A DNA stretch of 64,000 bases from an uncultured Pseudomonadales bacterium (lineage in GTDB: Bacteria > Patescibacteriota > Microgenomatia > UBA1400 > PJMF01): positions 23,978-87,977 of the forward strand of contig CAZOWX010000003.1 of NCBI GenBank assembly GCA_964583795.1, written 5' to 3'. A program made the position numbers and the translations under genes. Positions 473 to 47,895 of this stretch are shown here, piece by piece. Each line of letters begins with the position of its first letter. Within the stretch, counting starts at the first letter, position 1. The notes beneath the pieces are model-generated. The model was not told the origin of the DNA and did no database searches. It was given only the letters and a program-made list of their open reading frames with translations.

Positions 473-629
473 CGTTTGGTTTGTTAACATACGTTATCAA
501 CTTTAGTAATCTCAATTCACCATACACCCCCAAAACTCACAAATCGTAGTATAGTACTCTCAAAAGTTGCTGATTTGAAATGGGTCCCGCACTGCGGGAT
601 GATGTTTATTTGTAGCCGAAAGGAGCTCT

Positions 630-1868
630 ATGTCACGAGCCAATTTTGTCAAAGCCATGCAGAGTGAGGTGAGTCGGATTGACGGTACCAAAACACAAAA
701 GCGCCAAGAGAAAGTGATTGAAGGGTTCACCAAAGATGTGTCGCCTCGCGCGCTGATCGATGGTCGTGAAGTGCGAATTTTTAACTCCAATGATTATTTA
801 GGATTGCGCCATCACCCGAAAGTGAAAAAGGCAGAGCATGAAGCTAGTGAATTGTATGGGGCAGGTCCTGGGGCAGTGCGATTTATTTCTGGGAGTTTGA
901 AAGTGCATCGCGATCTTGAAAATGCGTTGGCAAAATTCCACGGACGTGAAGCAGGGATGATTTTTTCTAGTGCCTTTGCTACTAACATGGCTGTGCTGTT
1001 TTGTTTACTCAAAGGACAGAATAAAGACTCACTCATCACCGGCCGTGCATTAGTGATTAGCGACGCGCTCAACCACCGCAGTATTATTGATGGCATCCGA
1101 GTAGCTGGACTTGATGCTGACCAGAAAGAAATTTTTAACCACATGGATGCAGACAGTTTGCGTGAAGTGCTGGCAAAAAATACTGGCAAATTCGAGCGAG
1201 TCATTGTGGTGACTGATGGGGTGTTTAGTATGCTGGGTGAGTATCAGGATTTAAAGGCTCTTCGCAAAGTGGTGGATGAGTTTGATGGGAAGTTTGATCA
1301 TGGAGTCTGGTTAGTGATGGATGATGCGCACGGCGTTGGAATTGGCGGTGAGACTGGTCGAGGTACTGAAGAGGTAAGCGGTGCTCGGGTGGATATCTTG
1401 ATCGGGACAATGGGTAAAGCGTTTGGAACTGATGGGGGATATGTGGTTGCAGATCAAAGTGTGATTGATTTCTTGCGAGAATCAGCGGCAACGTATATTT
1501 ACTCGAATAATATTGCTCCGGGAACTGCGGGAGCGGCACTGGCATCAGTGCAGATTGTGGGAAGTGCGGAAGGGAAAGCCCTTTTGACCCAGTCACGCGC
1601 TAATGTCGATCGATTCAAACATTTGATGAAAGAAGCAGGGTTTACGTTTGCCGCCGACTCACATCATCCAATTCAGCCGATTTTAATTGCAGAACCGGTG
1701 AAAACCAAGGCACTCACTGATGCATTGTTCGAGGCTGGATTTTTAGTCACCAACATTAACTACCCAGTCGTACCCAAAGGCAAAGATGAGATCCGGGTAC
1801 AATTAAGCGCCACTCATACGCTTCAGGACATTGAAGCGTTTGTAAAGGCGGCGGAACGCCTTGCTTAG
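630..1868 (+). CDS. PLP-dependent alpha-oxoamine synthase (glycine C-acetyltransferase / 8-amino-7-oxononanoate synthase family)
   Basis: Class-II aminotransferase fold with the PLP lysine motif GTMGKAFG and a DDAHGVG region. Full length is 412 aa. Confidence 0.8.
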   Translation: MSRANFVKAMQSEVSRIDGTKTQKRQEKVIEGFTKDVSPRALIDGREVRIFNSNDYLGLRHHPKVKKAEHEASELYGAGPGAVRFISGSLKVHRDLENALAKFHGREAGMIFSSAFATNMAVLFCLLKGQNKDSLITGRALVISDALNHRSIIDGIRVAGLDADQKEIFNHMDADSLREVLAKNTGKFERVIVVTDGVFSMLGEYQDLKALRKVVDEFDGKFDHGVWLVMDDAHGVGIGGETGRGTEEVSGARVDILIGTMGKAFGTDGGYVVADQSVIDFLRESAATYIYSNNIAPGTAGAALASVQIVGSAEGKALLTQSRANVDRFKHLMKEAGFTFAADSHHPIQPILIAEPVKTKALTDALFEAGFLVTNINYPVVPKGKDEIRVQLSATHTLQDIEAFVKAAERLA

Positions 1869-2155
1869 GTACCAGAGCGTCGGGTTTCAGGTATAAGGGA
1901 CGATGTAAGTCTATACTGCCTCGTCTTTAGTCCGTTGATGAAGATGTAACTCTGAAAAACAGTTAAAAATAAAAAGTCGTCATCCCGAACAGATCTGGTG
2001 AGGAACGAACCAGACAGATTCGGGATCTAAAGTTTGAGCACTTTTTTGTCATAATAAATGAAATCGATAATTTCTGTTTAACTTCGAAGTATTTTGACTT
2101 TAGATCCCGATGTTCATCGGGATGACGACTTTATTATTTACCTTCATCCAAATCA

Positions 2156-2659
2156 TTAGCTCTTTTGTTGTTTGCAATACAGATCGGGCAAGATTGAACG
2201 ACTAGGTCTCTCTGGATCGACATAGATCACTACTTCACCACCCTCATTCATCTGTTTAGGAACCGGCAAGCAGTATTCAATTCCAGTGTACTGTTGCCCA
2301 TTAAACGAATAGTTATAAACGATGCCCCACCGATGAATTTGAGAAAAAATTGATATTGGTGTGACAATAAAACCCGATTGCGTGATCTTTCCCATGAGTT
2401 CTATATGGTGAGTGAAAAAATACTGTTTTTGCTTGATATTGCGATAAATAGGTAGTAAACCAAGAAGTGGAATAAACAAAAGTAAGAGGAGGGGACTGAA
2501 TGGATTTCCTTTATCTATCTCTGGAGAGGTTGTAAGCACATAGATATATGAAACCAAAAAGCTCAATGATTGAAAGGAAAAGATCGCCAAAAGACCAGCG
2601 ATCGTAGCAGTCACTAGATTTTTTGAAAAATAAAGCTCAATCGAAAATTTTCTTTCCAT
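2156..2659 (-). CDS. DUF3592-like two-TM membrane protein (paralog 1)
   Basis: N-terminal MERKFSIE, two TM helices, C-terminal beta region ending ...VVIYVDPERPSRSILPDLYC. It is the tandem paralog of the adjacent gene. Confidence 0.55.
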   Translation of the reverse strand: MERKFSIELYFSKNLVTATIAGLLAIFSFQSLSFLVSYIYVLTTSPEIDKGNPFSPLLLLLFIPLLGLLPIYRNIKQKQYFFTHHIELMGKITQSGFIVTPISIFSQIHRWGIVYNYSFNGQQYTGIEYCLPVPKQMNEGGEVVIYVDPERPSRSILPDLYCKQQKS

Positions 2660-2661
2660 AG

Positions 2662-3180
2662 CTATCCATTGCTCGAATTTTGGTTGTGATTGTTGGGTTT
2701 ACAATACAAATCAGGCAAGATTGATCGATCTGGTTTTTCTGGGTTGAGATAGACCGCCACTTCATCACCAACTTTAAGTTCCTTTGGTATTGGCGCTATG
2801 TATGTAACGCCCATATATTCTTGACCGTTGTACGAATAGGTATAACGAATTCCATGTGTGGGTGAATCTGAAAGGACATCAACCAGTGATCCGATGTATC
2901 CTGTTTGTGTTATTTTTCCAGTAACTTCAGCATGATGTTGAAAGAATTTTTTTGTGTTTCGAATACCTATCCAGACAACCAAGAGTAGAACATAGGGAAT
3001 CAAAATCCAAAGCATTTGGACACTCAAATGAAAGCTTCTTCGTTCAGAAATGAGGAACGTGATTCCGAAAATTAATCCTATTACAAAAAACTGTGCAGCA
3101 AATATGATCCCCAAAACAGCAAGAAATGCAGCAGGAAGGTTTGATTTAAAGTATTGTTCAATCGAGAATTGTCTTTCCAT
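2662..3180 (-). CDS. DUF3592-like two-TM membrane protein (paralog 2)
   Basis: MERQFSIE... and ...VAVYLNPEKPDRSILPDLYC. It shares conserved blocks with 2156-2659, including the N-terminal MER(K/Q)FSIE motif and the C-terminal RSILPDLYCK. Confidence 0.55.
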   Translation of the reverse strand: MERQFSIEQYFKSNLPAAFLAVLGIIFAAQFFVIGLIFGITFLISERRSFHLSVQMLWILIPYVLLLVVWIGIRNTKKFFQHHAEVTGKITQTGYIGSLVDVLSDSPTHGIRYTYSYNGQEYMGVTYIAPIPKELKVGDEVAVYLNPEKPDRSILPDLYCKPNNHNQNSSNG

Positions 3181-3385
3181 ATAAAGATATCATAGAAAAG
3201 AGAGTGGGGGATGTAAATGTGATAGGGAAATCTTTGTTTTTATTTCCCAATAGACATAGTTGCGGTAACAAAGTGCTGGTATAGAGGGGAAGAGCAAAGT
3301 TGTTCTGTTGTTGGGTGGTTGAGTTGTTATAATGCACGTAATCACTTAACAACCCAACAACTAACAACATAACAACCCAGTTTCA

Positions 3386-5128
3386 ATGTCTTGGTATCGT
3401 ACCTACCGGCCACAAACAGTCAGCGCACTTCATATTGATAGTGTCCGAGAGAGTTTGCAAAAAATGCTTCAGTCTGGGAACCTCCCTCAGGCGCTCCTAT
3501 TTTCTGGGCCAAAAGGAACAGGAAAAACCTCAAGCGCTCGGATCATTGCCAAAGTACTCAACTGTGAACACAATGCCAAGCACGAGGCTGGCAAACCGTG
3601 GAAAGAACCATGTAATACTTGTGAGTTGTGTGTACTGATTACCAAAGGTTCGGCACTGAATGTCGTGGAGATGGATGGCGCGAGCAATCGGCGCATCGAT
3701 GATATTCGTGCACTCAAAGAGCGTCTGTATCTTCCTCCGTCGCAGGGACAGAAAGTGGTGTACATCATCGATGAAGTGCACATGTTGACCAAAGAAGCCT
3801 TCAATGCGCTTTTGAAAATGTTGGAGGAGCCACCAGAACATGTGGTGTTCATTTTTGCTACGACCGACCCGCAAAAGATTCCAGAAACGGTCATTTCTCG
3901 TGCGACCAGAGTGCAGTTTACCAAAGCATCCGTGTCAGAATTGGCCAAATCACTGCAAGAAATATCAAAAAAAGAAAAAATTGAGGTTGACCAACAAAGC
4001 CTCGAACTTATCGCCCAGAGTGCCGATGGCAGTTTTCGCGACGCTGTGAAGCTATTCGAGCAGTTAGTGAGCAGAGCGAAAGCAGACAAGAGTGTCATAA
4101 ACACGCAATGGGTAGAGAATGTTCTTTCGACTGTTTCGAGCGATGGGGTAGTGAAATTATTGCAAAGCATTTTAGCCAAAGACGAAAAAGCAGTGGTAGC
4201 CTATTTTCAAACCATTCGCTCGCAAAACGTGGAAGCGACAGTGATTCACAAGCAGTTGCTCGCTTTTTTACACACAGAGCTGATCAAAGCGCTCACAAGC
4301 AGCGAGGAACCGTTTACCCGCAAAGAGGTGTTGCTGTATTTGCTCAAACAATTTAGCGGCGTGGATATCCCCCAGTTGCATCCGTTCCCATTGTTACCGC
4401 TAGAGCTATGCGCAATTGAAATGGTGCTCAAAAGCAAAGAAAAAGATCGAACTGGCGGAGCAAATAGCAATAGTGTAAAAAATACAAAACACGAAGAAAA
4501 TGCGAAACTTGATAAAGTTGAAAGTCCCCCTCCTTCGTCCCGCAGTGCGGGAAAATTACAACTTGATCATCAGTCAGGTTTCCATTCAAGTGACTTCGGC
4601 GGGCAAAGTAAGTTGCAAGTTGTAAGTAATAAACAGGATGAAAACAATGATACTGTTTCTGATGCTGTTACGACGTTCGATATTTCTGAAGATTTTGCAG
4701 CTGATGATTCTCTTGTCAGTACTGAGTCTGCTGCGATGAAACCAGAATTCAACGATGCGACGGTAGAAGTTATTGAGTCAACATCAAACCAAGCGGATGG
4801 TTCTTTAGTTGGTCAAAAATGGCAGGAGTTATTGAAAATGATTGGAAAACATAACTTGTCTCTTGAAGCTATTTTACGCAGTGCCCGGTTTGCCAAGGGT
4901 GAACTCGGTCGAGCAACGATCAACGTGTTTTACTCATTTCACAAAGAACAGTTGGAGTTGCAGCGTTACCGAAACATTGTTGAACAAGCCATTTTTGAGT
5001 TACTTGGTGGACGTGTGCAGTTTGAGTATATCCTATCCCAGCCTCAGTCATCACAAGCCTCCGATGATAACGTTCGGGGGAATGTTGATAAAGAGTTTGT
5101 GAGCACGATTGAGGATGCACTGCTTTAG
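3386..5128 (+). CDS. dnaX: DNA polymerase III subunit gamma/tau
   Basis: Walker A GPKGTGKTS, zinc module CNTCELC, DEVHML box. A low-complexity linker carries an in-frame repeat insertion. Confidence 0.9.
   Translation: MSWYRTYRPQTVSALHIDSVRESLQKMLQSGNLPQALLFSGPKGTGKTSSARIIAKVLNCEHNAKHEAGKPWKEPCNTCELCVLITKGSALNVVEMDGASNRRIDDIRALKERLYLPPSQGQKVVYIIDEVHMLTKEAFNALLKMLEEPPEHVVFIFATTDPQKIPETVISRATRVQFTKASVSELAKSLQEISKKEKIEVDQQSLELIAQSADGSFRDAVKLFEQLVSRAKADKSVINTQWVENVLSTVSSDGVVKLLQSILAKDEKAVVAYFQTIRSQNVEATVIHKQLLAFLHTELIKALTSSEEPFTRKEVLLYLLKQFSGVDIPQLHPFPLLPLELCAIEMVLKSKEKDRTGGANSNSVKNTKHEENAKLDKVESPPPSSRSAGKLQLDHQSGFHSSDFGGQSKLQVVSNKQDENNDTVSDAVTTFDISEDFAADDSLVSTESAAMKPEFNDATVEVIESTSNQADGSLVGQKWQELLKMIGKHNLSLEAILRSARFAKGELGRATINVFYSFHKEQLELQRYRNIVEQAIFELLGGRVQFEYILSQPQSSQASDDNVRGNVDKEFVSTIEDALL
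4523..4582 (+). repeat. Intergenic-type repeat (CCCCTCC...TCCCGCAGTGCGGGA...GTCAGGT) inserted in frame within dnaX
   Basis: Same motif architecture as the intergenic copy at 55005-55060 and the ychF insert at 43299-43355. It encodes ...PPPSSRSAGKLQLDHQSG... in the DnaX linker. Confidence 0.55.
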
Positions 5129-5139
5129 ATTGTTGATGG

Positions 5140-5180
5140 TGCCAGTCCTAGACAGGTCCGCCTTGGACGGAGAATGTGGG
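5140..5180 (+). repeat. Double-hairpin repeat, degenerate copy (TGCCAGYCCAAGGCTGG-TCCGCCTTGGGCGGAGAGTGTG family)
   Basis: Immediately 3' of the dnaX stop. Matches the copies at 13446 and 50387. Confidence 0.5.
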
Positions 5181-5242
5181 TGGTGTTTTGTTTATCTGAA
5201 AAAAAACAAATACTGCATCGAAAGTAAGAAATCTTAAATGTT

Positions 5243-5313: not shown

Positions 5314-5372
5314 ACTATCTTTATAGTATTGATCTGTAAGTAGCCTTAAGAATTGATATACTTGTTTTAGAT

Positions 5373-6468: not shown

Positions 6469-6663
6469 TTCATTTTGTGCAGTCTTTCTGGTGCTTTTGC
6501 CACATAACAAAATAGAGTTATTGTCCAAGATCCTGCAACAAGTATGAATCTTGTGAATCCTGGCTCCTCATATTCCGCTATGGATTCACGATCTGATTGA
6601 ATTGATTAAAAAGTGTATCAGTTTAGTTCAGTCGAGGATGACGTACTTTTCTCTTCAACCATA

Positions 6664-6712
6664 TAACCACGTAACACCATAACCACATAACCACATAACC
6701 ACATAACAACCC
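6664..6712 (+). repeat. Tandem repeat of AACCACAT-type units
   Basis: Direct reading: cataaccacataaccacataaccacataac. Confidence 0.6.
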
Positions 6713-6903
6713 AGTAACTCTTTTAGATAGGTTTTCTTAGTAACAAAGCAACTAAACAACTAAGCAACAAACCAACCAACCAACCCCCACAGCCCCTAGA
6801 CACCGTCATTTTTCTATAGTACTTTGAGTCATTGCGATGCAACGGTTCAACCAGTCATTGCATTCCCTATATACTATATACTAACCCCTACATACTTATT
6901 CCC

Positions 6904-7848
6904 ATGCGACTCATCCTCACTGGCTCCATCGCCATCGATAGAATTCTAAACTTTAGCGGCAAGTACGCTGATGTTATTGCCCCTGATAAACTGCATGTAT
7001 TATCTCTTTCCGTGTTGGTCGATAACTTAGTTGATACTCGTGGGGGAATTGCCGCCAATATTGCATATGGATTAGCGCTACTGGGGGAAAAACCAGTGTT
7101 ATTGGGCAGTGTCGGTCATGATGCGAAAGGGTATATGAATGATTTGGCAGCGCTTGGGATCGATACTTCACATGTTCATTTTTCAAAGAAACCAACCGCC
7201 AGTTTTACGGTGATGACCGATACCGCTGATTGCCAAGTCGGTGGCTTTTATTCTGGCGCGATGAGTGACTCAAGTAGTTTGACGCTCGACGCTTTTGATC
7301 CGGCACGTGATTTTATAGTCATTTCGCCACATGACCCCAAAGCCATGGCGTTGCAGGTCAAGCAAGCGACTGATCGAGGGTTCCATTACTTTTATGACGT
7401 TGGTCAGCAAGTGAGTAATGTGCCTGATGAAGATGTAGTCAATGGAATTGCTAAAGCATCACTACTCATTGTGAATGATTATGAAATGGGAGTAATTGAA
7501 AAGAAAACGAAATTAACTCAAGCCCAGATTGTGAAAAATGTCCCTGTGGTAGTTATTACCTTAGGAGAAAAAGGATCGTTGATTTTTGATCATGGAAAAA
7601 AGCATGAAGTGAGTGCCGTTCCAGTGAAAAAAGTGGTTGACCCAACCGGTGCAGGCGATGCGTTTCGATCAGGATTTTTATTTGGCTATGTTCGTGATTG
7701 GCCAATTGTACAGTGTGCAAAGCTCGGCTCAATTGTGGCTACATTTGCGATTGCACAGCATGGAACACAAGAGCATCACTTTTCCAAAGCTGATATTGAA
7801 AAGATTGCGAAAAAGCAATATAAATTGGTTCTAGGTTCTAGGTTCTAG
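6904..7848 (+). CDS. PfkB-family carbohydrate/nucleoside kinase (adenosine-kinase-like)
   Basis: Ribokinase-like fold with the GG dipeptide and a C-terminal DPTGAGDAF anion-hole motif. The likely start is MRLILTG at 6904 rather than the upstream ORF start at 6832. The last five codons (LGSRF) are encoded by the (GGTTCTA)n array. Confidence 0.75.
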   Translation: MRLILTGSIAIDRILNFSGKYADVIAPDKLHVLSLSVLVDNLVDTRGGIAANIAYGLALLGEKPVLLGSVGHDAKGYMNDLAALGIDTSHVHFSKKPTASFTVMTDTADCQVGGFYSGAMSDSSSLTLDAFDPARDFIVISPHDPKAMALQVKQATDRGFHYFYDVGQQVSNVPDEDVVNGIAKASLLIVNDYEMGVIEKKTKLTQAQIVKNVPVVVITLGEKGSLIFDHGKKHEVSAVPVKKVVDPTGAGDAFRSGFLFGYVRDWPIVQCAKLGSIVATFAIAQHGTQEHHFSKADIEKIAKKQYKLVLGSRF

Positions 7849-7880
7849 GTTCTAGGTTCTAGGTTCTAGGTTCTAGGTTT
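7827..7880 (+). repeat. (GGTTCTA)n heptamer tandem array, about 7.5 units
   Basis: Direct reading. The same array recurs at 47671 and 57984. Confidence 0.8.
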
Positions 7881-8035
7881 GGTTGTTGCTTTGTTATTAA
7901 GAACTACTTACAGACAGATAAAGCAAATCGAAAAGAAGTGGCACTTGTCGCTTGAGGCTTGAAGCATGAAACTTGAAGCCAAAATAAAAGCTTGTAGCTT
8001 TTTTATTAACAAAATTTCTATTAAAAAGGACATTT

Positions 8036-17525: not shown

Positions 17526-19358
17526 ATGCAAAGCAGCGAACACAGCTCCCAGCATCACTCAGTAACCTCACAAGCCAGAACATTTTTTCATCACGTGTCT
17601 AAGCACCCCTCCCGATTTATGCCCATAGTGGTTATGGTGGCTTTGGTCAGCTCAGTGGTGATGGGAGTTCTGACCTTGGCTGGAACAAAAAATTACGATC
17701 TAAGAAGTCAAGCAGCATACCCATTGTATCAAGCCTGTGTTGTTAACAGTGACTGTCAAAGTAATGTCTGTCGCACTTGTCGTGCTGGTGAAGTGTGTCC
17801 TGATGTGATTGGAAAGTTTTGTTTCTCACCAGATCCCACCAAGATTGTTTCGACAGTCACCCCAACTTGTGTGAGGTCGGGAAACCAACAGGGAACTGGA
17901 CAGTGCTGTTCAGGTGTAAGTTCAGTAACTGATAAGGCAGGTGTTCGTTGGTGTGGGGCAGCCCCGCTACCGACAAAAGTACCTGATTCGAGAAAGCAAT
18001 TATTTGTTAACCAGGGTTGCACACCAGGTGATCCTGAAAATGTTTGTCCCCCTGGAACTTTGTGCATGAACGACCCTAACAGTACTGATGGAAACATGCA
18101 AACGAAATGCATCTCTTCTGAAGGAACAAGTTCTTTGTGTAGTTATACGAGTGTTCGCGGAGAAGTATTATCAATGCAAGTTGGTGCCTATGCCACTTCG
18201 AATGATGGGAAATGTTACCATTGTGGCTTGCGTGGAGCGCCTTCAATAGTGAGTGACACTGCTTGTGTACAACCGACAGATCCACGAACAAGTTGTTACG
18301 AGCAAGGTGACGTGAAGCAATTGAGTAGCGTTCCATGTTGTGCGGGATTGGGTGTGAAGAGGACTGCAAATGGTGAGGTGTGTGATGTGGTGGACACATC
18401 AGAAGAGTGTTATGCTGCTGGAGAAAGAATGGTTGATTTTTCGATCCCGTGTTGTAATCATGAAGCGCCGGATCATAACAGTGATGGTACTATAACAATT
18501 TGTGGTCCGACTGATATTCGGCGATGTCCCTTTGTGAGTACAGATGGAAAGCTTGAATATGTTCAAGTAGGTGTTTGTCGTGGGAGTCAACGTTGTCAAG
18601 AAAACGAGCGAATGGAGACGGATGTGACCTGCGGAACGTCACCAATTGCAAAGCCGTGTTACTCTGGTCTGTTGTGTGCTGACGTTACCTTTGTGAATCG
18701 AAGTGAAAGCTGTCCAGTAGGCACATTTGACTCATATGATGCGTGTAAAAGTGAAGGGGCAAAGACTGGAAGTCCAAAGGTGCAAAGTACTACCAGTAGT
18801 TTAAACACTGAAACGACCAAAGTCGCTGCAAATGTCAGTCAAAAGTACGGCATAACTGTGGACGTTTCTCAAAACAAGACGATGCTGCCAGATACCGTGA
18901 AGACCCTCGATACCACTTTAGATAAGTTACCGCAATCATTCGTTGTTCAGGCGAAAAATATTACTTTTGTCGATGGCCAACAGAAGAGTTCAAGCAATGA
19001 TTTAAAGGGAAATATTGTGGTGAGTTGTGATCCCACGAAGGCGATTGAATGTCAAGAAAATGTGGTGCACCTCATCGCCATAGGCTCAACGGAAAAACCA
19101 GTGGTAACTTCGACCTGTAAAGATGGGTGCAGTGCTCTGGATGCGTTTCACAAAGTGATAACTGCAAATAAACTGTTATCAGTGAACTCGCAAGGAGTGA
19201 TTGACCCTACGAGTTCAAAACTACAGTTGCCATCAAAGTTAGCGCCAACCGAAAAAGAAGCGTTTGCATATTATCAGGCAAAGGCGATTTTGGACCCCAA
19301 AGCACTGAGCAGTGAGTCCAGTGAGCTAGCCAAATTATTTGCAGAAATGGGAAAATAA
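17526..19358 (+). CDS. Cysteine-rich secreted or surface protein (N-terminal signal anchor)
   Basis: 610 aa. A TM helix near the N-terminus is followed by more than 45 Cys in repeated C-x-C / CC contexts, consistent with a disulfide-rich extracellular domain. Confidence 0.6.
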   Translation: MQSSEHSSQHHSVTSQARTFFHHVSKHPSRFMPIVVMVALVSSVVMGVLTLAGTKNYDLRSQAAYPLYQACVVNSDCQSNVCRTCRAGEVCPDVIGKFCFSPDPTKIVSTVTPTCVRSGNQQGTGQCCSGVSSVTDKAGVRWCGAAPLPTKVPDSRKQLFVNQGCTPGDPENVCPPGTLCMNDPNSTDGNMQTKCISSEGTSSLCSYTSVRGEVLSMQVGAYATSNDGKCYHCGLRGAPSIVSDTACVQPTDPRTSCYEQGDVKQLSSVPCCAGLGVKRTANGEVCDVVDTSEECYAAGERMVDFSIPCCNHEAPDHNSDGTITICGPTDIRRCPFVSTDGKLEYVQVGVCRGSQRCQENERMETDVTCGTSPIAKPCYSGLLCADVTFVNRSESCPVGTFDSYDACKSEGAKTGSPKVQSTTSSLNTETTKVAANVSQKYGITVDVSQNKTMLPDTVKTLDTTLDKLPQSFVVQAKNITFVDGQQKSSSNDLKGNIVVSCDPTKAIECQENVVHLIAIGSTEKPVVTSTCKDGCSALDAFHKVITANKLLSVNSQGVIDPTSSKLQLPSKLAPTEKEAFAYYQAKAILDPKALSSESSELAKLFAEMGK

Positions 19359-22736: not shown

Positions 22737-23540
22737 ATGAGTAATCAGGTTTCAGGTTCCGGGTTTCAGGTTTCAGGGGATGCAATCCAAGCGCAACCTG
22801 TTGTGAATGGTGATGTAACAGTCAGTAGTCAGTTGTCAGTTGTTAGTGATCCCGCTACCGCTCAAGGTAACGGAGGAGCACAGCAGACGTCAGTCGTCAG
22901 TGGACAAGGGACAATTCAACAACCTAACACCCCAACCACTCTACAATCCATCCCTGATCCAGCTGTGGATGAAGCAGTAGCACAGGCGAAAAAAGTGCAG
23001 GATTTATTTGCGAGAAATGATGCGCTAGCGGCAACTGCGCAAACACCAGTTTCAAGTGTTCCAACATCAGTTTCGCCACTTCCTTCGAATCAAGACAATC
23101 AGATCCTGAAACAAGTTCAGGATGACGGGTCTTTTGCCTCACAATCAATGACAACTGATAACACACAACAATCAGCTAGCGATCAGCCAGCACTTCAGAA
23201 TCCAATAACCAATACCCAACAACCAATACCCAGCTCTGATGATCAAAAAAGCCCGCTTGATATTTTAGAAGAAATCCTGCGCAAAGAAGAAAAAAAACAA
23301 GCTGAAAAAGAAGCGGTTGTATCGCAAGAGGAAACTGAGAATCAAAAGCAACTTGAAGCACAGCAAGAAGCAGAAAATCAGGCATTGATTGAAGAAGCAC
23401 GAAAAAAAATGATTCAAGAAACCGCCACAGAAGAACAGAAACAACGAGACGCCATTCGTCAACAACAAATTGATGCGAATAAAGTACATAATCCGTACGA
23501 GATTCGGCAGTTGGAACATGTGAAGAGGGGGCAGGGGTAG
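22737..23540 (+). CDS. low-complexity Q/S/T-rich protein with a K/E-rich coiled-coil C-terminus
   Basis: The first codons are encoded by TCAGGT-type repeats, so the real start is uncertain. Confidence 0.35.
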   Translation: MSNQVSGSGFQVSGDAIQAQPVVNGDVTVSSQLSVVSDPATAQGNGGAQQTSVVSGQGTIQQPNTPTTLQSIPDPAVDEAVAQAKKVQDLFARNDALAATAQTPVSSVPTSVSPLPSNQDNQILKQVQDDGSFASQSMTTDNTQQSASDQPALQNPITNTQQPIPSSDDQKSPLDILEEILRKEEKKQAEKEAVVSQEETENQKQLEAQQEAENQALIEEARKKMIQETATEEQKQRDAIRQQQIDANKVHNPYEIRQLEHVKRGQG

Positions 23541-23791
23541 TGGATTATCGATGATAGATTATAGAGTGTTTACCCGGCCAACTTTTCTGGCCAACAGGCA
23601 AAAAAAGTTTGACAGGTGGAAAGTAGATTTAGTGATTGGCGACTAGCTATTAGTGGTTGACATGATGAAGATGAATTAAGTAGCAACTGGAAGAGGTTGT
23701 TGGGTGATTGGGTTGTTGTGTTGTTGGAAAACTTTTTATCTGGTCATAACAACACAACTACACAACAACCTAACAACATATCCATATCAAT

Positions 23792-27847: not shown

Positions 27848-27900
27848 TCGTCAGAGGTTGGTTGTGTGCTGTCTGAGTAACAAGTTTCTGCCCCAACGCT

Positions 27901-28331
27901 CGTCATCCCGGCGAAGGCCGGGATCCATTTTTTTGTGTGACTCACTGAGTTGTTTTGCTCTTGCAGATGTCATTTTCATGTCACAATTTTGTAGTTTAAT
28001 CGCAATATGGACAAGAAAGGATATGTCTATATCTTGGCGTCAAAACCGTATGGAACCTTGTACATTGGGGTTACTTCGGATTTGATAGGGCGAGTGTGGG
28101 ATCATAAGCACAATATCATAAAGGGGTTTACACAAAAATATAACGTCCATATGCTTGTGTGGTATCAAGAGTCTGAACTAATAACTGATGCGATTTACAA
28201 GGAAAAGCAACTAAAAGAATGGCATAGAAATTGGAAAATACGACTCATTAAAGAAACAAATCCTTGTTGGAAAGATTTGTATGAAAAAATTATTGAATAG
28301 TACGTGGATCCCGGCCTTCGCCGGGATGACG
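27901..28331 (+). mobile_element. Candidate small mobile element: GIY-YIG nuclease gene flanked by perfect 27-bp terminal inverted repeats that are themselves hairpins
   Basis: Left TIR CGTCATCCCGGCGAAGGCCGGGATCCA (27901-27927) is the exact reverse complement of TGGATCCCGGCCTTCGCCGGGATGACG (28305-28331). The TIRs belong to the hairpin repeat family scattered through the window. Confidence 0.55.
28007..28300 (+). CDS. GIY-YIG nuclease-superfamily protein (YhbQ/UPF0213-like)
   Basis: GYVYIL...GTLYIGVTSDLIGRVWDHKHN...KYN...KEKQLKEW matches the standalone GIY-YIG (YhbQ) pattern. Confidence 0.85.
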   Translation: MDKKGYVYILASKPYGTLYIGVTSDLIGRVWDHKHNIIKGFTQKYNVHMLVWYQESELITDAIYKEKQLKEWHRNWKIRLIKETNPCWKDLYEKIIE

Positions 28332-28443
28332 AAGGTCACTGTGTCAAAAGAATTTATAGATCGCAATGTGATTTTCTTGTCCAAAGCGCAATCAAATTTC
28401 TACGCAACTAGTCAACCCCCCAACGAACTCCTATACTGAAACC

Positions 28444-29103
28444 ATGTCGCATTTTTCTCTGAATTTGCTGAAGTTTGCGGTGTTCTTTCTCCTACTCAAT
28501 GGTGGAGGAATGTGGTTTGTGTTGTATCGTGATCACCAGACAATACAGCGGTTGCAACAGCTCGATAATGCTCCTGCAGTCAAAGTAGAGCCAACTCCAA
28601 CGCCGCGTTCATTCCCGAGCATCGAGTCGCGACTCGATGTGCTGGAAAGTTCTCAAGAAGCGATACAGTCAAGAGTGAATGATCTTGAAGATTCGCAATC
28701 GAAAAGCAAATCAACAAAAACATATACTCAAAGCACGAGCTCAAAAAGCCCCAAAGAGTACACCCTGTATCTCGGTGAAGGCTCTACAGTGAGTCGCGAG
28801 TGGACTACGGTGCAGTCAACCACAATCTCAATTGATACCAGTAAGTACAAGGGCATTACTGCAGTGTACTTCGAGTCAGGTTTGTCGATTATTGGCGGAG
28901 AGGCATATGCACAACTGATTGACGCAGAGTCAGGAGCAATACTCACCAGTCGTGCTTTAGTGAGTAACACACCAAATCCGGTTTGGAAATCGATTCAGAT
29001 TAATTTGGAGTCAGGGAATCACATGTATGTGGTGCAGTTACGTTCATCGAGTGGGGAGCTAGCAACGCTCAGTGGGGCGAGGATACGGATTATGGCTGAG
29101 TGA
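28444..29103 (+). CDS. hypothetical membrane-anchored protein
   Basis: 219 aa with an N-terminal TM helix. Confidence 0.5.
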   Translation: MSHFSLNLLKFAVFFLLLNGGGMWFVLYRDHQTIQRLQQLDNAPAVKVEPTPTPRSFPSIESRLDVLESSQEAIQSRVNDLEDSQSKSKSTKTYTQSTSSKSPKEYTLYLGEGSTVSREWTTVQSTTISIDTSKYKGITAVYFESGLSIIGGEAYAQLIDAESGAILTSRALVSNTPNPVWKSIQINLESGNHMYVVQLRSSSGELATLSGARIRIMAE

Positions 29104-29119
29104 TTCTAGGGGTTAGGAA

Positions 29120-29182
29120 GTTAACAGTGGACAGTGGAACAGTTAATAGTTAGGTTGCAAGATGCAAGCTTCAAGTTGCAAG
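29120..29182 (+). repeat. GTTAAYAGTGGACAGT...TGCAAG-rich repeat family
   Basis: Related copies at 15949, 40519 and 55088 (+) and at 16313 and 58055 (-). Confidence 0.5.
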
Positions 29183-29316
29183 TAAACACCCTTCATACCC
29201 AGGAGTAATTCTGGGGATCAAAAGTACTTGTATTGTATCAAAAGCGAGAAAAATCGCCACCCTTGACTGAACTGATACACTCTTCAAATCAGCTCAGTCA
29301 GATCGTGAATTCCTGG

Positions 29317-29331
29317 TCCCGCACTGCGGGA
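29317..29331. repeat. 15-bp palindrome TCCCGCACTGCGGGA
   Basis: One of six copies. The others are at 585, 4538, 12664, 29539 and 47881. This copy lies in a ~75-bp unit duplicated at 29490-29560. Confidence 0.6.
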
Positions 29332-29398
29332 TGAGGAGCATGGCGATACGGGATAAGTCTTCAGTAGTCAGAAAACTTTCTTTATCCCAACCCCGTTT

Positions 29399-29434
29399 GT
29401 CATCCCGAATTCGATTCGGGATCTAAAGTCAGAG
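29399..29434 (+). repeat. Hairpin MITE-like repeat, core copy (GTCATCCCGAATTCGATTCGGGATCTAAAGTCAGAG)
   Basis: Near-identical to 13524 and 55257. Forms an inverted pair with 29667-29704. Confidence 0.65.
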
Positions 29435-29666
29435 CTCTTCATCGAAGCGGGGAAAAACGATCCTTCTAGATATTGAAAAGGTTTTTCAAAAGTGAGAAAA
29501 ATCGCCACCCTTGACTGAACTGATACACTAATTTCTGGTCCCGCACTGCGGGATGAGGAGCCAGAATTCGCAAGATCAATACTGTTGTTTCAGGATCTGG
29601 CATGGGAAGCCCTTGTCGGAAGCCAAAAAAGAAACCTCTCTGCTTCAGTTCTCAATAAGAGTAGAT

Positions 29667-29704
29667 CTCTGACTTTAGATCCCGATTTTCATCGGGATGA
29701 CGAC
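29667..29704 (-). repeat. Hairpin MITE-like repeat, inverted orientation (CTCTGACTTTAGATCCCGATTTTCATCGGGATGACGAC)
   Basis: Shares the extended flank CTCAATAAGAGTA with the copy at 55436. Confidence 0.55.
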
Positions 29705-29792
29705 TTTTTATTTTTCTTGCTTTCGAGTAAGGATTTTTTATTCAACAACACACCAATCCAACCACATAACAACTTTTCGAAAGCAAAAAAAA

Positions 29793-29839
29793 CGTCATCC
29801 TTGATTTTGCATGTTGAACTTTAAATCAAGGATGACGAG
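29793..29839. repeat. Palindromic hairpin repeat (CGTCATCCTTGATTT - 14 nt - AAATCAAGGATGACG)
   Basis: 15-bp inverted arms carrying the family termini. A related fragment AATCAAGGATGGCGA lies at 29943. Confidence 0.55.
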
Positions 29840-29998
29840 TCTAACTATCAACAACTCAACTACCCAACTACCCAACTACTTAACAACGTTTCTATAGCGA
29901 AAAAATCGCCACCCCTGATAACGAAAGTGTCAATTCAAATCAAGGATGGCGAATGTAACTATCCAACTAAGCAACCAAGCAACTGACTAACTACTGAA

Positions 29999-30667
29999 TT
30001 ATTGCCCCGCTGACTTTTTCATCATCTCTTCAAATTGCTGTTTTTCTTCTGCACTCATTCCCTCTTGTGCACTTTCTGCTGCATTTTTCATCATGACACT
30101 AAAATCAGCAAACTTGACGTTAGCTGGTGGTACAAACTCACTGTCACTAACGATTGTCGGATTACAATCTAGTTTCATGCCTTCATTTTCCAGTTTTTCG
30201 ATTTCTTCTTCACTGGAGAAATCAGGAGTCTGAGGGGCATTTTTGATCGCGTCCTTTGCTTGATCTGCAGATTTCTTCTGCTCTTCTTCAGATGGGATGG
30301 CCATTTTGAAGCCTTCATTTTTGGTAGAGTCCCAAGTGTACAGGAAAGACTCGTCTACGATCATCTCACCGGTGGTCGCTTTCTGATCATTACTTGTAAC
30401 GATCCCTGACATGTGCATTTTTTTACCTTTGGCAACATACTGCGAGGTAGTGTTGGTTTTAGTGTCGGTCATAGTGCATTTCAGTCCACCACCAACTTTC
30501 AGTGCATCAGTCCAACTTTTGAACTTATTTGTGTCTGAATTTTGTGCTGCAGTAGTTGGTGTTTGATCTTGAGTGGGAGTCGTGGTGGTAGTAGTTGATT
30601 TGGAAGTACAGCCAGCTAACACTACTGAGCCGACAAAAACGCTGGTAATGAGCGCGTATTTTTTCAT
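29999..30667 (-). CDS. Lipoprotein (hypothetical)
   Basis: Lipobox LAGC after the signal peptide MKKYALITSVFVGSVVLAGC. T/Q-rich linker. The ORF start was trimmed to MKKYA. Confidence 0.6.
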   Translation of the reverse strand: MKKYALITSVFVGSVVLAGCTSKSTTTTTTPTQDQTPTTAAQNSDTNKFKSWTDALKVGGGLKCTMTDTKTNTTSQYVAKGKKMHMSGIVTSNDQKATTGEMIVDESFLYTWDSTKNEGFKMAIPSEEEQKKSADQAKDAIKNAPQTPDFSSEEEIEKLENEGMKLDCNPTIVSDSEFVPPANVKFADFSVMMKNAAESAQEGMSAEEKQQFEEMMKKSAGQ

Positions 30668-43787: not shown

Positions 43788-43790
43788 ATA

Positions 43791-43831: not shown

Positions 43832-43885
43832 TGCGAGACTGTAAAGTGTGGGGTGTTAGATCAAACCGGAACAAGAAAAAAGGTG

Positions 43886-44429: not shown

Positions 44430-44472
44430 AATATTATTATATTGTTTTGATATTATTTTGTCAAGGAGTTAG

Positions 44473-44516
44473 AGAGCGAATGGAAACGAATGAGAACGAA
44501 AAAGAACGAATGGAAG
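44473..44516 (+). repeat. ACGAATNGAA-type tandem repeat
   Basis: gagcgaatggaaacgaatgagaacgaaaaagaacgaatggaagg. Confidence 0.5.
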
Positions 44517-44520
44517 GTTT

Positions 44521-45423: not shown

Positions 45424-45464
45424 GTTTTTCTGTTATAACATAACGTTATAACGAAAGGTGTATC

Positions 45465-46171: not shown

Positions 46172-46321
46172 ACTAAGTACTTGTTGTTGGCCAATTCCTC
46201 TGGTACAATACCCATCACAACTTTAACACTTGCCGTTGCCATCCCAAACCTTCCAGGTGAAGGAGTCCATTAAGCCTAGCAACAGCACAGTTATCCCGCA
46301 ACGCGGGAAAGAAGGGCCCTT

Positions 46322-46666: not shown

Positions 46667-46790
46667 CCGATGTCAGATTCTTGTCATAATCGGGAGTATA
46701 CTAATAGTTACACATACCAATAAACCAGAGATGAAGAGTCGAGCGGTTATTATCTGATTCGAAATGCTCTCTGAGAAAAAAGGAGTACAC

Positions 46791-47294
46791 ATGTCAGTTC
46801 GATCACTCAATAAAGTGATGATAATAGGCAATCTCACTCGAGATCCACAGATGCGATTCACCCCGACAGGGACCGCTGTGTCAACCTTTGGCATTGCCAC
46901 AAATCGCAGCTGGGTACCTGGAGATGGCGGTGAGCGACAAGAAGAGACTGAGTTTCACAATATTGTGGCTTGGTCAAAGTTAGCGGAAATTTGTGGGCAG
47001 CTGCTACACAAAGGTGACAAAGTCTACGTTGAAGGAAGAATCCGTACTCGAGATTGGAAAACTCAGGAAGGTGATGATCGTCGAACCACAGAGATCATTA
47101 TTGATAACATGATGTTGTTGAGTTCTCGTGGTGGATCAGCGGGCGGATATGCGTCGAGTGATATGGGGTCAGGAACGTCTGATGCTGGGACTCGTGGAGC
47201 TTCACAGCAGTCTGGAAAATCGAGTTCGACAGTCGCACCTGAGCCAGCTGAAGAAGTAGCGGTTGAAGACGTCAGTGACGACATCCCATTTTAA
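46791..47294 (+). CDS. ssb: Single-stranded DNA-binding protein
   Basis: OB fold, G/S-rich tail ending in the acidic DDIPF tip. Confidence 0.9.
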   Translation: MSVRSLNKVMIIGNLTRDPQMRFTPTGTAVSTFGIATNRSWVPGDGGERQEETEFHNIVAWSKLAEICGQLLHKGDKVYVEGRIRTRDWKTQEGDDRRTTEIIIDNMMLLSSRGGSAGGYASSDMGSGTSDAGTRGASQQSGKSSSTVAPEPAEEVAVEDVSDDIPF

Positions 47295-47298
47295 AAAT

Positions 47299-47340
47299 AA
47301 CGAATAGAAGCGAATAAAAACGAATGTAAGCGAATTGTAG
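47299..47340 (+). repeat. ACGAATNNAA-type tandem repeat after the ssb stop
   Basis: aacgaatagaagcgaataaaaacgaatgtaagcgaattgtag. Confidence 0.5.
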
Positions 47341-47426
47341 AATTATGAGATTAGGCCTATTTATTAACAAGTAATTCATAATAAACGAATTTATATATTT
47401 GTTTAAATTCGAAAAGGTAAAAATTT

Positions 47427-47663
47427 ATGTCAAAGCTTTTTCAAAAGAAACGTCGAAAAAACTTGCCTCAGGTTAAAAAAGCACCCGCAAGTTTGAGTTT
47501 CGACTACAAAGATGCTCGCACTTTGCAGCGCTACCTAAGTGAACATGGTGCTATTGAGGGGCGCGATCGGACAGGGTTATCAAATAAACAACAACGTCAG
47601 CTATCTCGAGAGATTAAACGTGCTCGACACCTGGGGATGATGCAGTTTACGCAGACACTGTGA
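47427..47663 (+). CDS. rpsR: 30S ribosomal protein S18
   Basis: ...FDYKDARTLQRYLSEHGAIEGRDRTGLSNKQQRQLSREIKRARHLGMM... Confidence 0.9.
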   Translation: MSKLFQKKRRKNLPQVKKAPASLSFDYKDARTLQRYLSEHGAIEGRDRTGLSNKQQRQLSREIKRARHLGMMQFTQTL

Positions 47664-47670
47664 TAGATTA

Positions 47671-47724
47671 GGTTCTAGGTTCTAGGTTCTAGGTTCTAGG
47701 TTCTAGGTTCTAGGTTCTAGGTTT
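47671..47724 (+). repeat. (GGTTCTA)n heptamer tandem array, about 7.5 units, directly after the rpsR stop
   Basis: Direct reading. Followed by GTTTTGGGCGGAGAGTGTAGAGTG, which resembles the tail of the double-hairpin repeat. Confidence 0.8.
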
Positions 47725-47880
47725 TGGGCGGAGAGTGTAGAGTGCGAAATGTGGATTATAGATTGTGGATGATGGATTTTTTGTACTTGGCTTGAGAGAA
47801 TAGACTTGTAGCTTGTCATTTTGACAGGCTCAATGTAAAAGCTTGCTTGCCCGCCGTAGCTTTACTGTGTCCTCTCGTAG

Positions 47881-47895
47881 TCCCGCAGTGCGGGA
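47881..47895. repeat. 15-bp palindrome TCCCGCAGTGCGGGA
   Basis: Direct reading. Confidence 0.6.

What the first reader, a model, noticed from the sequence alone, without database searches (positions are those of the whole stretch)
585..47895. Six copies of a perfect 15-bp palindrome TCCCGCAGTGCGGGA (or its CACTG-centred variant)
- **Locations:** 585-599, 4538-4552 (inside dnaX), 12664-12678, 29317-29331, 29539-29553 and 47881-47895.
- **Expectation:** a specific 15-mer should occur far fewer than once in 64 kb.
- **Flanks:** several copies are flanked by GGTC/GGATGA half-sites that tie them to the CGTCATCC/GGATC hairpin family.
- **Duplicated unit:** two copies (29317 and 29539) lie in a ~75-bp unit AAAAGYGAGAAAAATCGCCACCCTTGACTGAACTGATACACT...TCTGGTCCCGCACTGCGGGATGAGGAGC that contains TTGACT. 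This suggests a repeated promoter/operator module or a protein-binding site.
Basis: seen in the sequence. Interest (0 to 1): 0.5.

Follow-up and report, generated by a model that had tools for sequence, protein, structure and literature searches.

The report
Mini-hairpin repeat allied to Ssn nuclease motifs
The six identical 15-base palindromes are real, and they are most likely the shortest members of a family of DNA hairpin repeats scattered between the genes of this candidate-phyla bacterium, the kind recently shown in Neisseria to be bound in single-stranded form by a small nuclease that is also encoded in this window; they do not look like a gene-regulator binding site.

Summary
**Observation:** confirmed. 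TCCCGCASTGCGGGA occurs six times (none expected). The two "variants" are one sequence read from opposite strands.

**Host:** a repeat-rich Patescibacteria (CPR) genome.

**Link to a known hairpin family:**
- Four copies carry the oriented flanks TCA|palindrome|CC.
- They share the module TCATCCCG...CGGGA with seven longer hairpins of the CGTCATCC...GGGATC family.
- Two of those seven match the published Ssn-related motif (SRM) pattern exactly. In inverted orientation they flank a 97-aa GIY-YIG ORF (28007-28300).
- That ORF is 56% identical to the Neisseria SsnA-type protein.

**The other two copies:** 47881 and the in-frame dnaX copy share a different flank. The 47881 copy sits at the centre of a ~70-nt element, which a 91%-identical relative carries at another locus.

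**Distribution:**
- A more distant syntenic relative has none of these hairpins.
- Matches in other organisms are single and have no ssn gene in the stretch fetched.

**Verdict:** the palindrome is the minimal-loop core of an SRM/NTS/dRS3-like hairpin repeat set in mosaic intergenic regions. It probably acts as single-stranded DNA, as a site for the Ssn nuclease or a decayed one. It does not meet the strict SRM pattern, and binding is untested. The operator/promoter reading is not supported. Interest is modest: a new variant of a known kind, in a phylum the Ssn paper does not mention.

The parts
582..602 (-). Palindrome copy 1 (core 585-599), subfamily 1. On the - strand it reads caTCA|TCCCGCAGTGCGGGA|CCc. 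It lies in the intergenic region 31 nt upstream of the aminotransferase ATG.
   Evidence: The flanks beyond about 5 nt are unique in the window. It also scores as a weak terminator-like site.
4524..4552 (-). Palindrome copy 2 (core 4538-4552), subfamily 2, in frame in the dnaX linker (SPPPSSRSAG). On the - strand the palindrome is followed by CGAAGGAGGGGG, as in the 47881 element.
   Evidence: Logan contig L121 ends right at this copy, an assembly break at a repeat.
12661..12682 (+). Palindrome copy 3 (core 12664-12678), subfamily 1: TCA|palindrome|CCAG. It occupies the terminal mini-hairpin slot of a CGTCATCC element that reads on the - strand from 12708.
   Evidence: (D15, I14).
29313..29334 (-). 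Palindrome copy 4 (core 29317-29331), subfamily 1, in a repeat mosaic 1.0 kb downstream of ssn. The same site in the related Logan contig L156 (run SRR33126934) reads TCCCGCACTACGGGA.
29535..29556 (-). Palindrome copy 5 (core 29539-29553), a local duplicate of copy 4. It is nested in the outer hairpin AATTTCTGG...CCAGAATT.
47849..47917 (+). An element of about 70 nt with palindrome copy 6 (47881-47895) at its centre; subfamily 2 (palindrome|CGAAGTGGGAGCGGAGGAGGG).
   Evidence: The same element is present in L120 at 3700-3775, at a different locus (downstream of recR) where the window has none.
28007..28300 (+). ssn-like gene: a 97-aa single-domain GIY-YIG nuclease.
   Evidence: - Pfam PF01541, E = 1e-12.
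- 56% identical (E = 1e-36) to the 94-aa N. gonorrhoeae protein that sits in a cluster of 9 NTS repeats.
- 65% identical to a Ca. Doudnabacteria homolog.
27901..27928 (+). Canonical SRM hairpin upstream of ssn: CGTCATCCCGGCGAAGGCCGGGATCCAT.
   Evidence: Exact match to the published SRM search pattern. There are 2 matches in the window against 0.16 expected. It is one arm of a perfect 28-nt inverted repeat (I11).
28304..28331 (-). Canonical SRM hairpin downstream of ssn, in inverted orientation.
2105..2125 (-). CGTCA|TCCCG-loop-CGGGA|TC hairpin of the same superfamily. Others lie at 13526-13547 (+), 29400-29421 (+), 29680-29700 (-) and 55261-55282 (+).
   Evidence: and the alignment.
6541..6571 (-). 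Decayed relative of the 29539 element. At the palindrome position it has ATAGCGGAATA (left arm lost), followed by the shared TGAGGAGCCAG.
   Evidence: (I15).

Best explanation
The 15-mer is the core of a short-loop subfamily of dispersed DNA hairpin repeats. These are of the same kind as the Ssn-related motifs (SRM; Neisseria NTS/dRS3) that fill the intergenic regions of this Patescibacteria genome.

**Shown:**
- The genome encodes an SsnA-type GIY-YIG nuclease flanked by two canonical SRM hairpins.
- Four palindrome copies share the 5' module TCA|TCCCG and the 3' CGGGA|(C) with those hairpins.
- The copies sit in mosaic intergenic repeat blocks that differ between close strains.

**Inferred:**
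- When the DNA is single-stranded (replication, repair, incoming transforming DNA), the hairpin forms and is bound by the Ssn nuclease, or was before it decayed. In Neisseria, Ssn cuts a few bases upstream of its motif and so modulates recombination of incoming DNA.
- The copies spread, and are kept identical, by the same little-understood process that multiplies SRM/NTS repeats: recombination between repeats, or Ssn-linked copying.
- The dnaX copy is a tolerated in-frame remnant in a disordered linker.
For: 1. **Enrichment.** Six copies against 0 expected.
2. **Shared module.** TCATCCCG-N(3-14)-CGGGA occurs 11 times against 0 expected, as four palindromes plus seven CGTCATCC hairpins. The alignment puts the palindromes in register with the window SRMs and with the Neisseria NTS.
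3. **Stem identity.** The stem TCCCGC/GCGGGA is identical to the inner stem of the Neisseria NTS, CGTCATTCCCGCGMAVGCGGGAATCYRG (PMC11893778; N. gonorrhoeae copies).
4. **The base after the palindrome.** The paper found the C immediately 3' of the palindrome to be the base most crucial for SsnA binding. It is present in 5 of 6 copies, when each is read in the orientation set by its flanks.
5. **The ssn locus.**
   - The published SRM pattern matches exactly twice, on either side of the 97-aa GIY-YIG ORF.
   - That ORF is 56% identical to the Neisseria protein.
   - Two palindrome copies lie 1.0-1.2 kb downstream of it.
6. **Location.** Five of six copies are intergenic, although 81% of the window is coding.
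7. **Plasticity between strains.**
   - The 70-nt palindrome element is present downstream of recR in L120 and absent there in the window.
   - At the 29317 site, L156 has a point variant and a different upstream mosaic.
8. **Lineage specificity.** The syntenic relative L154 has no such hairpins in 21.7 kb.
9. **Another CPR genome.** L158 shows the same arrangement of an ssn gene flanked by SRM hairpins, plus many CGTCATCC repeats.
Against: - The palindrome units do not match the published SRM search pattern, and are not among the sites within 2 mismatches of it.
- The G of the conserved GTC upstream triplet is absent (TTC, ATC or CTC instead). The paper found those three bases to matter most for cleavage.
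- The hairpin is shorter than any SRM described.
- Two copies (4538, 47881) lack the TCA flank and belong to a different flank family. Relative to that flank their centre base is flipped.
- No binding or cleavage data exist for this protein.
- Only 64 kb plus a few kb of the genome could be examined. Another enzyme, or a second ssn paralog, elsewhere in the genome cannot be excluded.
Confidence: 0.6

Rival explanations
1. An independent REP/MITE-like mini-hairpin module, unrelated to Ssn. It would be multiplied by a transposase encoded outside the window (for example a REP-associated tyrosine transposase). Its resemblance to SRMs would come only from a generally favoured GC-rich stem.
For: - It fails the strict SRM pattern.
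- The 47881 copy is preceded by GTAG, the tetranucleotide typical of REPs (own knowledge of REP/RAYT systems).
- The 70-nt element sits at different loci in two strains.
- The copies are nested inside other repeats.
Against: - No Y1-transposase or any other transposase was found among about 60 ORFs of the window (Pfam).
- GTAG is present in only 1 of 6 copies.
- The shared 8-nt TCATCCCG module plus CGGGA with the ssn-flanking hairpins is far beyond chance.
Confidence: 0.2
2. An operator for a dimeric DNA-binding regulator, repeated in front of a regulon.
For: - A 7-N-7 inverted repeat is the classical shape of an HTH-dimer site.
- Copy 585 lies 31 nt upstream of a start codon and overlaps a weak promoter-like match.
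Against: - Three copies lie between convergent gene ends, and one lies inside dnaX.
- The copies are embedded in strain-variable mosaics.
- The TTGACT of the duplicated unit has no -10 partner.
- The neighbouring genes are functionally unrelated and no regulator is adjacent.
- The oriented asymmetric flanks (TCA...CC) are not expected for a symmetric dimer site.
Confidence: 0.05
3. Transcription terminators or mRNA 3'-end stabilising hairpins.
For: - Four copies lie downstream of gene ends.
- The RNA hairpin folds at -8.9 kcal/mol.
- Copy 585 followed by GATGTTTATT passes the terminator-like scan.
Against: - Only one copy has any T-rich tail.
- The copies occur in both orientations relative to the upstream gene, and one is inside a coding region.
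- Identical sequence at unrelated sites is not needed for termination.
- At best this is a secondary use of some copies.
Confidence: 0.08
4. A DNA uptake signal for natural transformation, like the Neisseria DUS or the Haemophilus USS.
For: - CPR bacteria are thought to rely on DNA uptake (own knowledge).
- The window encodes DprA, RecR and SSB.
Against: - The density is about 1 per 10 kb, against about 1 per kb for known uptake sequences (own knowledge).
- The copies are nearly all intergenic, whereas 34% of DUS lie within coding sequences (PMC11893778).
- The motif is absent from a syntenic relative.
Confidence: 0.03

Closest known systems
Ssn-related motifs (SRM) / Neisseria Transformation Sequence (NTS), bound and cut as ssDNA by SsnA-family GIY-YIG nucleases (Chenal et al. 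2025, PMC11893778)
   Same: - A multi-copy, mostly intergenic, hairpin-forming semi-palindrome with oriented non-palindromic flanks.
- The inner stem TCCCGC/GCGGGA is identical to that of the NTS.
- TCA lies immediately 5' and C immediately 3' of the palindrome.
- An SsnA homolog (56% identity) is encoded in the same window and is itself flanked by two canonical SRMs.
   Different: - The loop is 3 nt (5 nt between TCCCG and CGGGA), against 8-9 nt in the window's canonical copies.
- The outer A-T pairs are missing.
- The G of the GTC triplet is not conserved.
- It does not match the published degenerate SRM pattern.
- Two copies have quite different flanks.
- The host is a Patescibacteria genome, a group the paper does not mention.
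Neisseria dRS3 repeats and the neisserial intergenic mosaic elements they delimit
   Same: - A short exact palindromic repeat, of which only a subset carries the oriented NTS-type flanks.
- It sits in intergenic blocks made of shuffled repeat modules that vary between strains (the mosaic-element comparison rests on my own knowledge).
   Different: - The dRS3 pattern ATTCCC[N8]GGGAAT is not met.
- The copy number seen here is small (6 in 64 kb).
- No evidence that it serves as a phage integration target.
REP elements / BIMEs with RAYT transposases
   Same: - Short GC-rich extragenic hairpins.
- Clustered with other repeats into mosaics.
- A single-strand hairpin is the likely active form.
   Different: - No RAYT gene in the window.
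- The GTAG head is present in only one copy.
- The associated enzyme here is a GIY-YIG nuclease, not an HUH tyrosine transposase.
Small dispersed repeats (SDR) of heterocyst-forming cyanobacteria (Elhai et al. 2008; recalled from memory, the paper could not be read here)
   Same: - Very small units (about 20-27 nt), some of them hairpins.
- Found nested inside other repeats and occasionally inside genes.
   Different: - A different phylum and different sequences.
- No enzyme partner is known for SDRs.
- The comparison is a lead, not a test.

Membership tests
SRM/NTS hairpin repeats (applied to the 15-mer units) | Forms a hairpin from a semi-palindrome of roughly 20-50 nt | tested here: inconclusive
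   It does fold: 6-bp stem and 3-nt loop, DNA -6.5 kcal/mol. But the conserved unit is only 15-22 nt, at or below the lower size limit given in PMC11893778.
SRM/NTS hairpin repeats (applied to the 15-mer units) | Matches the published search pattern HGTCWYN(0-2)YYVSBRHN(0-5)WNVSBRGN(0-2)RNCYNB | tested here: not met
   The pattern matches only 27901-27928 (+) and 28304-28331 (-). No palindrome copy is among the sites within 2 mismatches.
SRM/NTS hairpin repeats (applied to the 15-mer units) | Conserved, oriented 5' flank (CGTC before the palindrome) | tested here: inconclusive
   TCA is conserved in 4 of 6 copies, identical to the last three bases of CGTCA in the canonical copies. The G is replaced by T, A or C. 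Copy 47881 keeps CGT but reads CGTAG.
SRM/NTS hairpin repeats (applied to the 15-mer units) | Cytosine immediately 3' of the palindrome (the base most crucial for SsnA binding in Neisseria) | tested here: met
   GGGA|C in 5 of 6 copies when each is read in the orientation set by its flanks, including dnaX on the - strand. The exception is 29317/29539/585-type orientation-independent: all four subfamily-1 copies and both subfamily-2 copies were checked, and only one reading fails.
SRM/NTS hairpin repeats (applied to the 15-mer units) | Multi-copy, above the shuffled expectation, and mostly outside genes | tested here: met
   Six copies against 0 expected. Five of six are intergenic in a window that is 81% coding.
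SRM/NTS hairpin repeats (applied to the 15-mer units) | An ssn gene is present in the same genome | tested here: met
   The ssn-like ORF lies at 28007-28300. Copies 29317 and 29539 lie 1.0-1.2 kb from it.
SRM/NTS hairpin repeats (applied to the 15-mer units) | Bound as ssDNA and cleaved upstream by the cognate Ssn, on one strand only | not testable with these tools
   Needs purified protein and oligonucleotides.
Ssn nuclease family (applied to ORF 28007-28300) | Single-domain GIY-YIG protein of about 94 aa | tested here: met
   97 aa. PF01541 covers residues 4-78 and there is no other domain.
Ssn nuclease family (applied to ORF 28007-28300) | Homolog of Neisseria SsnA at E < 1e-10 | tested here: met
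   - tblastn E = 3e-26 to a single N. gonorrhoeae locus.
- That locus encodes a 94-aa protein surrounded by 9 exact NTS matches in 3.3 kb.
- Pairwise identity is 56%, E = 1e-36.
- That this locus is ssnA is inferred from its length and NTS context, not from an annotation.
Ssn nuclease family (applied to ORF 28007-28300) | Gene flanked on both sides by SRM hairpins (NTS-ssnA-NTS) | tested here: met
   Exact SRM matches lie 79 nt upstream and 4 nt downstream of the ORF, in inverted orientation.
Ssn nuclease family (applied to ORF 28007-28300) | Assignment to CDD family cd10448 | not testable with these tools
   No CDD search is available. NCBIfam gave no hit and no homolog has a solved structure.
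dRS3 | ATTCCC[N8]GGGAAT | tested here: not met
   The palindrome is TCCCG-N5-CGGGA and lacks the outer AT pairs.
REP/RAYT | GTAG-type head 5' of the hairpin, and a RAYT gene flanked by REPs | tested here: not met
   GTAG is present only at 47881. No Y1 transposase domain was found in any ORF of the window. The rest of the genome was not seen.
Classical MITE | One consensus element with terminal inverted repeats and target-site duplications | tested here: not met
   The flanks fall into at least four unrelated contexts. The possible 8-nt duplication at the L120 insertion lies inside a heptamer array and is uninformative.
Intrinsic terminator | GC-rich hairpin followed by a T-run, oriented with the upstream gene | tested here: not met
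   Only copy 585 passes the scan. No palindrome copy in 29100-30000 passes it.

The most novel reading that the evidence does not exclude
The SRM-ssn-SRM cassette is an active, IS-like element in candidate-phyla bacteria. The 15-mer would be a minimal 'seed' hairpin that it copies in trans by Ssn nicking of single-stranded DNA followed by template switching. Such a seed could nest into other repeats, and even insert in frame into essential genes such as dnaX. This would make a roughly 20-nt unit one of the smallest mobile DNA elements known, and would give a mechanism for how NTS-type repeats multiply.
Probability: 0.12. Interest if true: 0.65.

Novelty: new variant of a known kind. Interest (0 to 1): 0.35.

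Why it matters
- Ssn nucleases and their hairpin motifs were described only in 2025, mainly from Proteobacteria. How the motifs multiply, and what they do outside Neisseria, is still open.
- This window shows a complete SRM-ssn-SRM locus together with a large, strain-variable expansion of related hairpins in a Patescibacteria genome. Such genomes are usually regarded as streamlined and are thought to depend on DNA uptake.
- The 15-mer subfamily escapes the published search pattern. Surveys based on that pattern would therefore undercount these repeats.
- It offers a natural minimal substrate for asking which parts of the motif are needed for Ssn binding and which for cleavage.
- In practice these repeats break short-read assemblies. 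Logan contigs end exactly at them, which affects the quality of CPR genome bins.

Tried and rejected
2. **19-mer scan of metagenome contigs.**
   - It gave 32 stretches, about 18 distinct loci.
   - Nearly all are high-GC soil or peat contigs with one copy each.
   - None has an ssn gene in the fetched DNA, and none matches the SRM pattern.
   - The one low-GC locus (L125/L128) is unrelated to the window.
   - I treated these hits as indistinguishable from chance.
3. **SRM pattern relaxed to 2 mismatches.** It gave 67 mostly random sites, so it is not a usable test.
4. **Initial hypothesis of a heterocystous cyanobacterium with SDR repeats.** Rejected: the DnaX homologs point to Patescibacteria.
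5. **Elhai 2008.** The paper could not be read.
6. **Literal sequence searches in papers.** Nothing relevant was found.
7. **RNA scans.** Rfam and the tRNA scan found no RNA gene at any copy.
8. **Exact-protein look-ups.** Several of those meant to recover the same sites in other strains failed.
9. **dnaX insertion.** Alignment with orthologs could not delimit an insertion, because the linker is hypervariable.

Full report
**1. The observation**

TCCCGCASTGCGGGA occurs exactly six times, at 585, 4538, 12664, 29317, 29539 and 47881. None occurred in 100 dinucleotide-preserving shuffles.

Allowing two mismatches in the 13-nt core adds only one unrelated hairpin, at 46295. All copies in the window are therefore identical.

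- The CAGTG- and CACTG-centred forms are reverse complements of each other. They are one sequence in two orientations.
- A 15-mer has an unpaired centre base. As a single strand it folds with a 6-bp stem and a 3-nt loop (DNA -6.5 kcal/mol; RNA -8.9 kcal/mol).
- Copies 29317 and 29539 lie in a local duplication. There are five independent sites.

**2. The host and its surroundings**

No tRNA or Rfam family was found in the window.

The DnaX protein has its nearest named relatives in Candidatus Woesebacteria and the 'Patescibacteria group'. The source is a 90.9-kb NCBI contig.

Pfam annotation of about 60 ORFs shows ordinary chromosomal genes: dnaX, ybaB, recR, hpf, cysS, ssb, rpsF, mreBC, a PBP2-type transpeptidase, dprA, topA, fpg and others. 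There is no transposase, and no regulator lies next to any copy.

The window is 81% coding. The remaining 19% is packed with repeats:
- heptamer tandem arrays;
- AAC-rich octamer arrays;
- many small hairpin families.

**3. Anatomy of the six copies**

When each copy is oriented by its flanks, two subfamilies appear.

| Subfamily | Copies | Form |
|---|---|---|
| 1 | 12664 (+); 585, 29317, 29539 (-) | yTCA\|TCCCGCAGTGCGGGA\|CC(AG) |
| 2 | 47881 (+); 4538 (-) | palindrome\|CGAAG followed by a G-rich tract |

In subfamily 2 the centre base is flipped between the two copies relative to that flank.

Beyond these few bases the flanks are unrelated to one another. The copies are therefore not sub-parts of one MITE. 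Each is instead a module inside a different composite:
- Copy 12664 fills the terminal mini-hairpin slot of a CGTCATCC element. In sister copies that slot holds other hairpins with 3-nt loops, such as TGGCC-AGC-GGCCA.
- Copies 29317 and 29539 sit inside an outer hairpin, TTCTGG...CCAGAA. A relative of that element at 6541-6571 has lost the left arm of the palindrome.
- Copy 47881 is the centre of an element of about 70 nt.
- Copy 4538 is in frame (SRSAG) in the hypervariable linker of an otherwise intact DnaX.

**4. Related sequences**

| Locus | Relation to the window | What it shows |
|---|---|---|
| L121 | 100% identical | Ends exactly at the dnaX palindrome (an assembly break at a repeat) |
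| L120 | About 91.5% identical | Carries the 70-nt palindrome element inside the heptamer array downstream of recR, where the window has an uninterrupted array |
| L156 | 99.75% identical over ssn and the next ORF | At the 29317 site it reads TCCCGCACTACGGGA, with a completely different mosaic upstream |
| L154 | Syntenic, 64% DnaX identity | No TCCCG...CGGGA hairpin and no SRM in 21.7 kb; short intergenic spacers |

The L120 difference is a presence/absence polymorphism at a different locus. The L154 result shows that the expansion is recent and lineage-specific.

Matches to the 15-mer or 19-mer in other organisms have these properties:
- each is a single copy;
- they are mostly in high-GC contigs;
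- no ssn gene lies in the fetched DNA.

I treat them as chance.

**5. The link to Ssn nucleases**

The ORF at 28007-28300 is a 97-aa single-domain GIY-YIG protein. It is flanked by a perfect 28-nt inverted repeat, and each arm of that repeat is itself a hairpin (I11).

Chenal et al. 2025 (PMC11893778) report the following:
- About 94-aa GIY-YIG proteins (SsnA) bind hairpin repeats only as single-stranded DNA.
- The repeats are the Neisseria NTS, CGTCATTCCCGCGMAVGCGGGAATCYRG, and more generally the SRMs.
- The protein cuts a few bases upstream of the hairpin.
- In Neisseria this lowers integration of transforming DNA that carries the repeat.
- ssn genes are typically flanked by the repeats.

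The window meets these features:
- The published SRM pattern matches exactly twice, at 27901-27928 (+) and 28304-28331 (-), against 0.16 expected.
- By tblastn the window protein hits one locus in N. gonorrhoeae chromosomes, which are filed as plasmids in PLSDB.
- That locus encodes a 94-aa protein surrounded by nine exact NTS copies in 3.3 kb.
- The two proteins are 56% identical, E = 1e-36.
- A Candidatus Doudnabacteria genome (L158) has a 65%-identical homolog between grpE and dnaK. It is again flanked by SRM hairpins and accompanied by many CGTCATCC...GGATC repeats.

**6. How the palindrome relates to these motifs**

CGTCATCC occurs 20 times in the window, against 1.2 expected.

The module TCATCCCG-N(3-14)-CGGGA occurs 11 times, against 0 expected. 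Four are palindrome copies and seven are canonical CGTCA-type hairpins, including the two that flank ssn.

In the alignment the palindromes sit in register with the window SRMs and the Neisseria NTS:
- The inner stem TCCCGC/GCGGGA is identical to that of the NTS.
- TCA precedes the palindrome.
- A C follows it in 5 of 6 copies. The paper found this C to be the base most crucial for binding.

The differences are:
- The loop is minimal.
- The outer A-T pairs are missing.
- The G of GTC is not conserved. The paper found the three bases upstream of the palindrome to matter most for cleavage.

As a result, no palindrome copy matches the SRM pattern, and none is among the sites within two mismatches.

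**7. Interpretation**

The best-supported reading is that the 15-mer is the core of a short-loop, partly decayed or re-specialised subfamily of SRM-type hairpin repeats. It is embedded in intergenic mosaics that recall the neisserial dRS3/NTS landscape.

- *Shown:* the enrichment, the shared modules, the ssn locus, the strain polymorphism, and the absence from a more distant relative.
- *Inferred:* that the hairpin acts as single-stranded DNA and is a binding site for the Ssn nuclease, possibly binding-competent but poorly cleaved. Also inferred is that the system modulates recombination of incoming DNA in an organism that encodes DprA, RecR and SSB nearby.

How the copies spread is unknown, here as in Neisseria.

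Rivals, with my confidence in each:
- An Ssn-independent REP-like module: about 0.2.
- Terminator use of some copies: about 0.08.
- An operator for an HTH dimer: about 0.05. Against it are the positions of the copies, their asymmetric flanks, and the lack of a promoter partner for TTGACT.
- An uptake sequence: about 0.03.

**8. Novelty and verdict**

The kind is known: Ssn/SRM systems and dRS3-like palindromes.

What is new is modest:
- a variant that escapes the published motif definition;
- a recent expansion in a Patescibacteria genome, a group the Ssn paper does not mention;
- one in-frame copy inside dnaX.

I rate it a new variant of a known kind, with interest about 0.35.

Noticed in passing
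window 27900-28332: A complete SRM-ssn-SRM cassette. A 97-aa SsnA-type GIY-YIG nuclease gene is flanked by a perfect 28-nt inverted repeat whose arms match the published SRM pattern. The cassette lies between cysS and an unknown ORF.
   Followed up: yes
window, 20 sites (e.g. 1978, 6408, 11543, 12420, 16248, 24577, 29793, 55259, 57024, 60673): The CGTCATCC...GGATC superfamily: 20 copies of CGTCATCC against 1.2 expected. It has several sub-families with different internal hairpins. All but one copy (23120, inside ORF 22737-23540) are intergenic.
   Followed up: partly
window 7813-7894, 47643-47752, 57957-58052, 50460-50550; also 6657-6792, 23740-23788, 29736-29999, 61502-61541: Tandem heptamer arrays, (GGTTCTA)n at three loci and (CTTGCGG)n at one, plus AAC-rich octamer-like arrays in many intergenic regions. 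This is unusual for a supposedly streamlined CPR genome.
   Followed up: no
window 13647-13718 (+) and 14119-14189 (-): Two inverted copies of about 70 nt score below threshold as tmRNA, with only the tRNA-like domain present (RF00023, 24.8 and 31.8 bits against a gathering score of 47). They flank the small ORF 13881-14171. ARAGORN calls neither a tmRNA nor a tRNA.
   Followed up: partly
window 13441-13488, 50372-50419, 5135-5182, 58720-58767: Another double-hairpin repeat family, GCCAGCCCAAGGCTGG-TCCGCCTTGGGCGGA. Two copies are 96% identical and one copy lies inside topA (D6).
   Followed up: no
L156 and L120 (both from Logan run SRR33126934) compared with the window: The ssn gene plus the next ORF is 99.75% identical to the window, while the recR region from the same run is only 91.5% identical. 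Either two strains are present or the ssn segment was transferred recently.
   Followed up: no
L158 (Ca. Doudnabacteria GCA_041389225.1, JAWKSI010000002.1), 9972-10330 and 13900-18600: An ssn homolog is inserted between grpE and dnaK with SRM hairpins on both sides, and there are dense CGTCATCCTGAGC...GAAGGATCTC repeats. Ssn/SRM systems therefore exist in other CPR lineages.
   Followed up: partly
window 10623-11026 compared with L119 2773-3095: ORF 9987-11066 (359 aa, no Pfam hit) is 27 aa shorter in a 99%-identical contig (332 aa). The ORF therefore contains an internal variable segment.
   Followed up: no
PLSDB records NZ_CP119140.1 and NZ_CP119142.1: Two N. gonorrhoeae chromosomes of 2.17 Mb are filed as plasmids in the plasmid collection.
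   Followed up: no
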